Shown in pieces: positions 41,853 through 56,469 of a stretch of DNA of 64,000 nt. Below the pieces are notes generated by a model that had not been told where the DNA came from, ran no database searches, and was given only the letters and a program-made list of their open reading frames with translations. Position 1 is the stretch's first letter, and every line of letters starts with the position of its first letter. Location: NCBI GenBank assembly GCA_048938105.1, contig JBHLMN010000002.1, positions 160,001 to 224,000 on the forward strand. The letters are read 5' to 3'. This DNA comes from Promethearchaeota archaeon (GTDB lineage Archaea > Asgardarchaeota > Heimdallarchaeia > Hodarchaeales > Hodarchaeaceae). Both the position numbers and the translations under genes were made by a program.

Positions 41853-42412
41853 ATGACTTTATATGAATTCGAAGGAAAACAGCCGAGAATTGCAAGAACT
41901 GCGTTTATTTTTCCATCGGCAGACATTAACTAGATAGTATCTGTTAACTGTAAATTATAGGAAAAGTAACTATAGGGGAAAATTGTTTCATTGGCCCCAA
42001 CGCTGTTCTACGCGGAGATTGGGGATACATTGAAATTGGAAACGGTTCCAATATACAGGATACCTGTGTTATTCACTCAATCCCAGACGAAGGGACTATT
42101 TTAGGTGAAGACTGTCATATTGGGCACGGTGCTGTTGTTCATCAAGCGGAATTAGGAAAACATGTATTAGTAGGTAAAAATGCTGTAATAATGAACCGAG
42201 CGAAGATTGGAGACGATTGTATAATCGGTAGCGGTTGTGTTGTCCCCCAAAACAAAATAGTTGAAGCTAATAGTCTTGTACTTGGTGTTCCAGGCAAAGT
42301 TATAGGAAAAGTTTCAGAAAATCAGAAGAATTATAGCTTAAACGCAACTAAACTTTATCAAACGTTACCTAAACGCTATCACGCAAGCTTAAAGCTCCTT
42401 AAAAATCATTGA
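41853..42412 (+). CDS. Gamma carbonic anhydrase family (CaiE/YrdA/PaaY-like) protein, join(41853..41924,41954..42412), 176 aa after removal of a 29-nt intron
   Basis: Exon 1 MTLYEFEGKQPRIARTAFIFPSAD joins exon 2 IIGKVTIGENCFIGPNAVLRGDWGYIEIGNGSNIQDTCVIH...HIGHGAVVH...LVLGVPGKV; the three His ligands are intact. Confidence 0.88.
41925..41953 (+). other. Candidate bulge-helix-bulge intron in a protein-coding gene
   Basis: GCAG(41919-22)/CTGT(41948-51) 4-bp helix, bulges ACA and AAA, intron stem TTAAC/GTTAA and a long exon-exon stem. Cuts after the second bulge nucleotide restore the frame. Confidence 0.8.
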
Positions 42413-54987: not shown

Positions 54988-55674
54988 CCAATAATCTCAT
55001 TTTAAGAAAAATCCGATTTTTCCTCTTTATTCAATTACAACACTCAAAAATTTTTCTCATATTTATGATTTTGCATTGTAAAACGCATCTACTGTGTAAA
55101 AAAACGGTTTTTTTCAAAATCATTCAAACAAAAATAATATTACAGGCGTTAATTCTTGTTTATTGATTCTAAAGATTAAAACTTCCAATTATACGAGATA
55201 ACCAAACTTTAAATGGCAGGAATTCATCTATTTTCTGAGATCTGTTAAGAACTTAGAGAAATGATCAATCAAAAGCATGACTTTAGAGAAAGTAGAAAGT
55301 TAAGTAAATTCACTATTGTCTATGAAAATATATAAGGGAGAATGGCTTCTAAAAAAAGAGGAAATCTTCCAAAAAAGAAAGAAACTTGGTACAAACCAAG
55401 ACTTCAGGGAAGTTTTTTCTCCATTTATTCATCCATATCTCTGACTTCTATGGGGATTGAGGGATCGACAATCCCTAAGAAGAATATTATTAAAATACCA
55501 GCACTACAACTCGCCTCAATGTTTTCTGGATCAACCTCATAAGGTGAATTCCTGAATCTTGCTTTTTTATCATAGAAAATTGTAGAAATCACTCCTAATT
55601 GTTTAAGTATCAAAAATTCCTTATCTGTTATCAAGTGGTACTCATTTGAAATTGAAAGAAATGGAGAAAAGAAC

Positions 55675-56469
55675 TTGTCTCACATGCCTCTGTTTGCTGG
55701 AATAGATGTTGGTTCATCATTCACAAAAGTGGTGGTAATCGATCAATCAAAAAATATTTATGGAACAGATATTCGTTTTTCTGGAACAAATTTGCGTAAT
55801 ACTGCTGAACAAAGTCTGTATACAGCTCTACAAAATAACAATCTAGAATCTAGGATCAAGGGAATAGTAGCGACTGGATACGGAAGAAGAAATGTTCAAA
55901 TTGATGAACAAACTATTTCTACAATCACTGAGATCAGTTGTAATGCCAAGGCTGCCCAGTTTTATTATCCAAATAAAGAATTATCAATTATTGATATTGG
56001 TGGACAAGATACAAAGATCATCAAAACAAAAGATGGAAAGCGAACAAATTTTAAAATGAACCGAAAATGTGCTGCTGGTACTGGGATGTTCTTAGAAGAA
56101 CTCGCGCTGAAATTGAGGATTCAACCAAACGATCTTAATATTTTAGCAAGTGAATCTTCAAATCCAACATCAATCAGCAGTTACTGTACAGTGTTTGCAG
56201 CGACTGAGATTCTCAGTCGAATCAGAGAAGGCGAGACTATGGAAGATTTGGTTCGAGGCGCTTTTCATTCTGTTGTCAAACGTGTCATGGAAATTGATGT
56301 CCTTGAAAATGAGGTTGTTTTAACTGGAGGGGTGATAGCTCACAATTCTATCATTGTTGATATTTTTGAAGAAGAGCTAGGTAGATCTGTATCTGTACCC
56401 CCTTCCCCTCAGCTATTTGTCGCCGTAGGTGCTGCATTATATGCTTTGGAAGAAGGTACATCTGTTTAG
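55675..56469 (+). CDS. Acyl-CoA dehydratase activase (HgdC/BadF family ATPase)
   Basis: GIDVGSSFTK, ATGYGR, IDIGGQDTK, KCAAGTG, SYCTVFA and LTGG. Confidence 0.92.
   Translation: MSHMPLFAGIDVGSSFTKVVVIDQSKNIYGTDIRFSGTNLRNTAEQSLYTALQNNNLESRIKGIVATGYGRRNVQIDEQTISTITEISCNAKAAQFYYPNKELSIIDIGGQDTKIIKTKDGKRTNFKMNRKCAAGTGMFLEELALKLRIQPNDLNILASESSNPTSISSYCTVFAATEILSRIREGETMEDLVRGAFHSVVKRVMEIDVLENEVVLTGGVIAHNSIIVDIFEEELGRSVSVPPSPQLFVAVGAALYALEEGTSV

What the first reader, a model, noticed from the sequence alone, without database searches (positions are those of the whole stretch)
41905..41969. Bulge-helix-bulge intron inside a protein-coding gene (gamma carbonic anhydrase family)
Seen: the gene starts at ATG 41853 but hits TAG at codon 27, and the rest of the protein is in another frame. 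Removing the 29 nt ATTAACTAGATAGTATCTGTTAACTGTAA (41925-41953) gives a seamless PSAD-IIGKVTIG hexapeptide repeat and a 176 aa protein with no other lesion seen. The junction folds as an exon stem TTATTTTTCCAT/ATAGGAAAAGTAA (closing G-U, one mismatch, one bulge), a 4-bp helix GCAG/CTGT, two 3-nt bulges ACA and AAA on opposite strands, and an intron hairpin TTAAC-T-AGAT-AGT-ATCT-GTTAA. Known: archaeal tRNA splicing endonuclease (EndA) cuts after the second nucleotide of each BHB bulge and RtcB ligates the exons; the well-documented archaeal mRNA case is crenarchaeal cbf5. Those cut positions (AC|A and AA|A) are exactly the frame-restoring excision. Inference: this probable Asgard archaeon splices an mRNA with tRNA-splicing machinery. 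A short frame-switching intron recalls XBP1/HAC1 non-spliceosomal splicing and could act as a regulatory switch.
Basis: partly seen in the sequence, partly recalled or inferred. Interest (0 to 1): 0.95.

Follow-up and report, generated by a model that had tools for sequence, protein, structure and literature searches.

The report
tRNA-type intron inside an Asgard protein gene
A 29-base insert shaped like an archaeal tRNA intron splits a conserved enzyme gene of a Heimdall/Hod-type Asgard archaeon; the split gene is still under strong selection, so its mRNA is very probably cut and rejoined by the tRNA-splicing enzymes, which papers document inside a coding sequence for only one other archaeal gene (cbf5).

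Summary
Observation confirmed. A gamma-carbonic-anhydrase/PaaY-like gene (ATG 41853, stop 42410-12) is broken by 29 nt (41925-41953) that bring an in-frame TAG and a frame shift. The junction forms a canonical bulge-helix-bulge (BHB): GCAG/CUGU helix, 3-nt bulges ACA and AAA, and a 5-bp intron stem. Cuts after the second base of each bulge give exactly the frame-restoring excision. The 176-aa product aligns without a gap to 13 intact orthologs.

A congener, G007 (CP070665.1), has a 41-nt insert at the same site with the same BHB core. The spliced genes of the two carriers differ with dN/dS 0.08 at dS 0.56, so the interrupted gene has stayed functional. The other 19 genomes of the family lack the insert. 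The genome encodes alpha and beta EndA subunits, RtcB and archease.

Best reading (about 0.85): an mRNA intron cut by EndA and ligated by RtcB, gained recently. The XBP1/HAC1-like "regulatory switch" idea has no support.

A GH38 mannosidase gene in the same genome carries a similar 31-nt insert. A partial census suggests only a few such introns per genome.

This scan has reported similar mRNA introns before in other Asgard and DPANN genomes. In the papers searched, only cbf5 and one Haloferax 5' UTR intron are reported.

The parts
41853..41924 (+). Exon 1 (24 codons, MTLYEFEGKQPRIARTAFIFPSAD)
   Evidence: It matches the N-termini of 13 intact orthologs. Against G007 it has 5 synonymous and 2 conservative R/K changes.
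41905..41914 (+). Outer exon helix h, 5' strand (UUAUUUUUCC)
   Evidence: Pairs with 41960-41969 in both the MFE and the BHB-constrained folds.
41919..41922 (+). Central 4-bp helix, exon strand (GCAG)
   Evidence: Pairs with CUGU 41948-51. Identical in G007.
41923..41925 (+). 5' bulge ACA; predicted cut after 41924
   Evidence: The rule 'cut between the 2nd and 3rd bulge residue' comes from PMC2738675.
41925..41953 (+). 29-nt intron, holding an in-frame TAG (41931-33) and a TAA (41951-53) in the exon-2 frame
   Evidence: 26 of 29 aligned bases are identical to the 41-nt insert of G007. No other copy exists in the genome.
41926..41947 (+). Intron helix h' (UUAAC/GUUAA) with inner hairpin AGAU-AGU-AUCU
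41948..41951 (+). Central 4-bp helix, intron strand (CUGU)
41952..41954 (+). 3' bulge AAA; predicted cut after 41953
   Evidence: The bulge is AUA in G007, where the cut again restores the frame.
41954..42412 (+). Exon 2 (152 codons plus stop), hexapeptide-repeat left-handed beta-helix
   Evidence: Pfam Hexapep 9.9e-20. NCBIfam PaaY, CaiE and gamma-CA profiles are matched from profile position 23-25 onward, below their cut-offs.
41960..41969 (+). Outer exon helix h, 3' strand (GGAAAAGUAA)

Best explanation
The 29 nt at 41925-41953 are an archaeal bulge-helix-bulge intron sitting in the mRNA of a gamma-carbonic-anhydrase/PaaY-like gene of a Hodarchaeales-type (Heimdallarchaeia, Asgard) archaeon.

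Proposed mechanism:
- After transcription the junction folds into helix-bulge-helix-bulge-helix.
- The heteromeric (alpha-beta) splicing endonuclease cuts after the second base of each 3-nt bulge (AC|A and AA|A).
- RtcB, helped by archease, joins the exons to give GGCAGAC|AUUAUAGG, an open frame for a 176-aa protein, and probably circularises the 29-nt intron.

The intron was gained recently, in the lineage of this genome and one sister species. It is most likely a tolerated passenger rather than a regulator.

Shown here: the sequence anatomy, the orthologous insert, selection on the split gene, and the presence of the enzymes. Inferred: the actual cleavage and ligation.
For: (1) The anatomy is exact: a 4-bp helix, two 3-nt bulges 3' of each helix strand and a 5-bp h' stem. 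The canonical cut rule yields the only frame-restoring product. The cut rule is taken from PMC2738675.

(2) Chance expectation is about 3e-4 per insert.

(3) G007 (CP070665.1) has a 41-nt insert at the same codon boundary. It has the same GCAG-ACA-UUAAC...GUUAA-CUGU-AUA core, and its BHB core is part of the MFE fold. Canonical cuts again give D|IIG in frame.

(4) The spliced CDSs of the two carriers differ with dN/dS = 0.079 at dS = 0.56, with no other lesion. Exon 1 alone shows 5 synonymous and 2 conservative changes.

(5) The intron is 26/29 identical between the carriers, against 61% identity at synonymous sites (P = 6e-4).

(6) The spliced proteins align gaplessly with 13 intact orthologs in conserved synteny (enoyl-CoA hydratase, this gene, pyruvate kinase). 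G000 has no close paralog.

(7) The machinery is present:
- an EndA catalytic subunit most like the A. pernix alpha subunit (E = 5e-41, aligned end to end from residue 13);
- a second, beta-like EndA;
- RtcB with archease directly upstream.
PMC5829648 reports that Asgard archaea have (alpha-beta)2 EndA with the L1 loop, which gives broad specificity.

(8) The same genome has many BHB-type tRNA introns of 19-58 nt. One example is a 33-nt intron in tRNA-Ile with a strict core.

(9) A second gene, GH38 mannosidase, has a 31-nt strict-BHB insert. Its canonical excision restores HTHWD|REWY, and the junction peptide matches the Pfam GH38N profile continuously across the join.
Against: Only two carriers are known, so there is conservation but no compensatory covariation. 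One inner-stem pair is in fact broken in G007.

The folding energy of the region is not exceptional (z = -1.18), and in G000 the MFE uses a slightly shifted register.

The outer helix next to the core is weak: G.U, mismatch, then 2 bp in G000, and two mismatches in G007.

My motif-plus-ORF genome scan showed no excess over shifted-cut controls. Genome-wide statistics therefore do not back the claim on their own.
Confidence: 0.85

Rival explanations
1. Inactivating insertion: the gene is a pseudogene and the BHB shape is a coincidence, or a relic of how the DNA was inserted.
For: The unspliced gene has a premature TAG and a frame shift. There is no RNA evidence. Another BHB-like 29-nt insert in this genome lies in a truncated, frameshifted gene fragment.
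Against: dN/dS is 0.079 over dS 0.56 between the two species that carry the homologous insert. Neither species has a second lesion, and exon 1 is constrained in its own frame. The chance of a product-equivalent BHB is about 3e-4. The intron is more conserved than synonymous sites. G000 has no intact paralog.
Confidence: 0.06
2. Translational bypass (ribosome hopping, as in phage T4 gene 60): the ribosome takes off at AUU 41925-27 and lands on AUU 41954-56, skipping 29 nt.
For: G000 has matching AUU codons at both ends of the gap, a hairpin and a stop codon within the gap. The protein product would be identical to the spliced one.
Against: In G007 the only matching landing codon (AUU) would delete one residue of the hexapeptide register that all 13 orthologs keep, whereas the BHB cuts give the full D-I-I-G. 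The stop codon is not adjacent to the take-off codon. From my own knowledge, bypassing is not reported in archaea. The exact BHB geometry would be left unexplained.
Confidence: 0.03
3. Assembly or sequencing artefact.
For: The genome is a 65-contig assembly with 7% estimated contamination. A plain frameshift at a poly-T run in another gene (C61) may be such an error.
Against: A diverged homologous insert (41 nt, 26/29 aligned bases identical) sits at the same site in an independent assembly, CP070665.1.
Confidence: 0.01
4. The intron is a regulatory switch: splicing is conditional and controls production of the enzyme, analogous to HAC1/XBP1. This is a special case of the best explanation, not an alternative to splicing.
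For: The unspliced mRNA can only give a 26-aa peptide, so expression depends wholly on splicing. Removal of the Haloferax 5' UTR BHB intron appears to matter for expression of HVO_1309 (PMC7714728).
Against: The intron is absent from 19 of the 21 genomes of the family, including an equally close relative (G003), so the gene works without it. No sensor or conditional element is evident. An Ire1-type RNase domain was not found, though that search had no positive control.
Confidence: 0.08

Closest known systems
cbf5 pre-mRNA BHB intron of Crenarchaeota (Watanabe 2002; Yoshinari 2006; Yokobori 2009, PMC2738675)
   Same: A short ORF-less intron (16-44 bp there, 29 and 41 nt here) inside a protein-coding sequence. 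The predicted cuts fall between the 2nd and 3rd bulge residues. The hosts have hetero-oligomeric EndA with broad specificity. Distribution among relatives is patchy, implying gain and loss.
   Different: The gene differs (gamma-CA/PaaY-like metabolic enzyme versus an RNA pseudouridine synthase), and so does the lineage (Hodarchaeales-type Asgard versus Desulfurococcales and Sulfolobales). The BHB core here is strict, whereas most cbf5 motifs are described as unconventional or relaxed. This intron is much younger, present in 2 of 21 family genomes. Splicing of cbf5 is shown experimentally; this one is not.
Archaeal tRNA and rRNA BHB introns (Marck and Grosjean 2003 motif definition)
   Same: The hBHBh' architecture, cut rule and size class are the same as for tRNA introns in the same genome (19-58 nt), and presumably the same enzymes act.
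   Different: The exon part of the motif is made of coding sequence rather than a tRNA arm. Correct removal is read out as a reading frame.
Haloferax volcanii HVO_1309 5' UTR BHB intron (PMC7714728)
   Same: An mRNA is the EndA substrate. In that study the excised intron was found as a circle and cleavage was confirmed in vitro.
   Different: That intron lies in the untranslated leader and does not interrupt a reading frame.
HAC1/XBP1 unconventional splicing (Ire1 plus tRNA ligase/RtcB)
   Same: Non-spliceosomal, protein-catalysed removal of a short frame-shifting intron, with ligation by a tRNA ligase (RtcB in metazoa). This comparison rests on my own knowledge.
   Different: The nuclease (Ire1 kinase-RNase) and the recognition motif (two stem-loops) differ, and that system is stress-regulated. 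No Ire1-type domain was found here (search without a positive control).

Membership tests
Archaeal BHB (EndA-dependent) intron | [quoted passage not shown] | tested here: met
   GCAG-ACA ... CUGU-AAA. The same core occurs in G007. Chance is about 3e-4.
Archaeal BHB (EndA-dependent) intron | Flanking helices h (exon) and h' (intron) | tested here: met
   h' is 5 bp plus an inner 4-bp hairpin. h is relaxed next to the core (G.U, mismatch, 2 bp, 1-nt bulge) and then 10 bp. In G007 the first two h positions are mismatched, so the motif there is of the relaxed HBh' type.
Archaeal BHB (EndA-dependent) intron | Cuts after the 2nd bulge nucleotide give the functional mature RNA | tested here: met
   Excision of 41925-41953 gives a 176-aa ORF that aligns gaplessly with 13 orthologs. 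The same holds for the 41-nt insert of G007.
Archaeal BHB (EndA-dependent) intron | Host encodes the splicing endonuclease and an RtcB-type ligase | tested here: met
   Two full EndA paralogs, alpha-like and beta-like, are present. RtcB and archease lie next to each other.
Archaeal BHB (EndA-dependent) intron | Motif maintained in orthologous introns, ideally with compensatory changes | tested here: inconclusive
   The core is identical in the two carriers, and the intron is more conserved than synonymous sites (P = 6e-4). With only two sequences, no compensatory pair change was seen.
Archaeal BHB (EndA-dependent) intron | Excision and exon ligation observed in RNA (spliced junction, circular intron) | not testable with these tools
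cbf5 intron lineage | Located in cbf5 at the codon of the catalytic Asp | tested here: not met
   The host gene is a hexapeptide-repeat gamma-CA/PaaY-like protein. This intron works like the cbf5 intron but is not a member of that lineage.
Programmed translational bypass (T4 gene 60 type) | Matched take-off and landing codons that preserve the protein, with a stop directly after the take-off codon | tested here: not met
   G000 has AUU/AUU, but the stop lies one codon further on. In G007 the matched landing codon would delete a residue conserved in all orthologs.

The most novel reading that the evidence does not exclude
This 29-nt intron and the GH38 intron would be fresh products of that process. 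Protein-coding genes in this lineage would then already tolerate interruption before any spliceosome existed.
Probability: 0.35. Interest if true: 0.8.

Novelty: new member of a known kind. Interest (0 to 1): 0.62.

Why it matters
In the papers I could search, splicing of an archaeal coding sequence by the tRNA endonuclease is confirmed for one gene only, cbf5 in Crenarchaeota, plus one 5' UTR intron in Haloferax. None of those papers reports it for Asgard archaea.

This case places a young, cleanly datable intron in an ordinary metabolic gene of the Heimdall/Hod lineage. Intron-free and intron-bearing alleles exist in sister species. That makes several things directly testable: intron gain, the minimal exon context EndA needs, and whether Asgard cells routinely process mRNAs.

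There is also a practical point. Gene callers will annotate such genes as pseudogenes or fragments, which understates the metabolic content of Asgard genomes.

Tried and rejected

Rfam and ARAGORN found nothing in the window.

The intron is not a repeat. blastn-short of both introns against the genome gave only chance 11-14-mers.

Genome-wide motif scan:
- There were 513,087 strict BHB cores.
- Filtering by ORF fusion gave about 12,000 hits, both for canonical cuts and for each shifted-cut control.
- A codon-usage filter did not separate them.
- This approach is therefore uninformative, and I draw nothing from it.

Census against 2.8 Mb of the intronless congener G009, done both motif-free and motif-guided:
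- Only this gene came out as a homology-validated BHB interruption.
- The other split alignments were spurious ORFs or a plain poly-T frameshift.
- The census covers about 57% of one comparator and needs exons long enough to align, so it gives a lower bound.

A metagenome scan with an exon-1 pattern returned only intronless G003-like alleles.

The protein and nucleotide trees could not resolve whether G000 and G007 are sisters to the exclusion of G003. A single gain is not excluded, but it is not proven either.

ARAGORN's intron boundaries were too unreliable to calibrate the BHB rule on this genome's tRNAs. Only tRNA-Ile gave a strict core at equivalent cuts.

The GH38 and 46-nt cases could therefore not be compared base by base with relatives.

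A simple -1 or +1 frameshift is rejected. The frame-0 TAG (41931) lies upstream of the TAA (41951) that closes the exon-2 frame, so there is no overlap window.

Full report
**What is there.** The window lies on contig C6 (160001-224000) of a 5.85-Mb, 35% GC, 65-contig archaeal genome. At 41853 an ATG opens MTLYEFEGKQPRIARTAFIFPSADIN and meets TAG as codon 27. From 41954 another frame reads IIGKVTIGENCF... to the stop at 42410-12, with a TAA directly upstream in that frame. The downstream part is a hexapeptide-repeat protein (Pfam Hexapep 9.9e-20). It matches the PaaY, CaiE and gamma-carbonic-anhydrase NCBIfam profiles from profile position 23-25 onward, below their cut-offs. Exactly the first ~22-24 profile positions are missing, and the 24 codons of the upstream piece supply them. 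Removing 41925-41953 gives a 176-aa ORF.

**The structure.** The element order is GCAG (41919-22), ACA, UUAAC, U, AGAU-AGU-AUCU, GUUAA, CUGU (41948-51), AAA. This is the textbook arrangement: a 4-bp helix with a 3-nt bulge 3' of each strand, an intron helix on one side and an exon helix on the other (UUAUUUUUCC 41905-14 with GGAAAAGUAA 41960-69).

The published rule for archaeal BHB substrates, including cbf5, places the cut between the second and third bulge residue (PMC2738675). Here that gives AC|A and AA|A, which is the 29-nt excision that restores the frame.

The BHB-constrained fold is 0.7 kcal/mol above the MFE. The region's energy alone is unremarkable (z = -1.18).

As a null, I shuffled the insert 200,000 times in its fixed exon context. 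Only 3.4e-4 of shuffles gave a strict core whose canonical cuts yield the same product.

**Relatives.** The family holds 21 species genomes in a single genus. Their public titles read Candidatus Heimdallarchaeota, Hodarchaeota or B3_Heim.

Thirteen congeners have an uninterrupted ortholog reading ...PSAD-IIG... or a close variant, in conserved synteny between an enoyl-CoA hydratase and pyruvate kinase.

One congener, G007 (CP070665.1, 90% protein identity), has a 41-nt insert at the same codon boundary.
- Its core is the same: GCAG-ACA-UUAAC...GUUAA-CUGU-AUA.
- It differs by a 12-nt internal duplication and a few substitutions.
- Its BHB core is part of the MFE fold.
- Canonical cuts give GAC|AUAAUUGGA, which is D-I-I-G in frame.

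A pattern search finds this insert in G000 and G007 only. A metagenome scan with an exon-1 pattern returned only intronless alleles.

**Is the split gene alive?** The spliced CDSs of the two carriers differ by 45.5 synonymous and 17.5 non-synonymous changes (dS 0.56, dN 0.044, dN/dS 0.079), with no further lesion. Exon 1 alone shows five synonymous and two conservative R/K changes. Both pieces have therefore been translated in their own frames, as one conserved protein, since the insert arose.

The insert is 26/29 identical between the carriers, against 61% identity at synonymous sites (P = 6e-4). This points to constraint on the RNA.

G000 has no close paralog that could replace the gene.

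These results make the pseudogene and assembly-artefact readings very unlikely.

**Frameshift and bypass.** A simple ribosomal frameshift is impossible, because the stop codons of the two frames leave no overlap.

Ribosome hopping from AUU to AUU would work on paper in G000. In G007, however, it would delete one residue of a register that all orthologs keep. It would also leave the BHB geometry unexplained.

**Machinery.**
- The genome encodes a 188-aa EndA most similar to the catalytic alpha subunit of the Aeropyrum pernix heterotetramer (3P1Z_B, E = 5e-41, aligned end to end from residue 13).
- It encodes a second, 218-aa beta-like EndA, plus a degenerate EndA fragment.
- RtcB is present with archease immediately upstream.
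- PMC5829648 reports that Asgard archaea carry (alpha-beta)2 EndA with the L1 loop associated with broad substrate range.
- tRNA genes here are heavily interrupted. ARAGORN recognises only 20, most of them with introns of 19-58 nt. tRNA-Ile carries a 33-nt intron with a strict core.

**How common is this in the genome?** My motif-plus-ORF scan was swamped by noise and is uninformative.

I then compared 2.8 Mb of the intronless congener G009 with the genome.
- The motif-free search for split alignments recovered this gene.
- The motif-guided search with shifted-cut controls also recovered it.
- Neither search found any other convincing BHB interruption.

Following leads from earlier notes of this scan:
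- I confirmed a 31-nt strict-BHB insert in a GH38 mannosidase gene (C35:96129-96159). Its canonical excision restores HTHWD|REWY, and the junction peptide matches the Pfam GH38N profile continuously.
- A 46-nt candidate (C35:100312-100357, minus strand) precedes a 95-aa segment that in relatives lies inside ~450-aa frames. This fits an interruption but is not settled.
- A 29-nt insert in a PMDh-like copy lies in a truncated, frameshifted fragment.

mRNA introns therefore seem to number only a few per genome here.

**Evolution.** On the gene tree G000, G007 and the intronless G003 form a near-trichotomy (nucleotide identity 0.86-0.88 in each pair). One gain, with or without one precise loss, is compatible with the data. 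The insert has no other copy in the genome, so its source is unknown. It is flanked by a 4-nt repeat, AUUA.

**Comparison with the literature.** In the held library the only coding-sequence case is cbf5 of Crenarchaeota ("no confirmation ... for genes other than cbf5", "only one example"). There is also the 5' UTR intron of Haloferax HVO_1309. The recent preprint on Asgard tRNA introns does not treat mRNAs, and searches combining Asgard or Heimdall with BHB or mRNA introns found nothing else. Earlier agents of this scan have reported similar mRNA introns in Loki-, Hel-, Baldr-, Odin-type Asgard and DPANN genomes. Those are unchecked notes, not publications.

**Verdict.** The regulatory-switch idea is speculation. 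I class this as a new member of a known kind: it uses the cbf5 mechanism, in a new gene and a new lineage that matters for evolution.

Noticed in passing
G000 contig C35:96129-96159 (+), outside the window (L255:6129-6159): A 31-nt strict BHB insert (UGGG/CCCA helix, ACA/ACA bulges) sits in a GH38 alpha-mannosidase gene after 24 codons. Canonical excision restores the HTHWD|REWY motif, and the junction peptide matches Pfam GH38N positions 2-39 continuously.
   Followed up: partly
G000 contig C35:100312-100357 (-), L255:10312-10357: A 46-nt BHB-like candidate lies between a 1317-aa open frame and a 95-aa tail. In congeners the tail lies inside ~430-465-aa open frames, so the gene is interrupted or rearranged here. 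Whether an intron is responsible was not settled.
   Followed up: partly
G000 contig C46 about 55660-56030 (-): A partial inverted copy (about 118 of 399 aa, 77% identity) of the neighbouring gene at C46:50893-52089 carries a 29-nt BHB-like insert in the NPAGMD motif and a further 1-nt frameshift. It is a decaying fragment, not a working spliced gene.
   Followed up: partly
G000 contig C61 about 206300-206330 (-): A small regulator-like gene is frameshifted at a T-run (TTTTTTCCC) relative to its G009 ortholog. This is a plain indel or an assembly error, not an intron.
   Followed up: yes
G000 contig C38:22018-22119 (-), L256 about 2018-2119: A third, short EndA-like match (28 bits) with an internal TAA lies in a region full of stops. 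It looks like a degenerate fragment of a splicing-endonuclease gene.
   Followed up: partly
whole genome G000: ARAGORN recognises only 20 tRNA genes in a genome estimated 99% complete, most of them with introns. This fits the heavily, often multiply interrupted tRNA genes described for some Asgard classes (bioRxiv 10.64898/2026.10.13.758758).
   Followed up: no
G000 contig C6:308137-309976 (+), outside the window: Archease and RtcB are adjacent on the same strand, a likely ligase operon on the same contig as the finding.
   Followed up: partly
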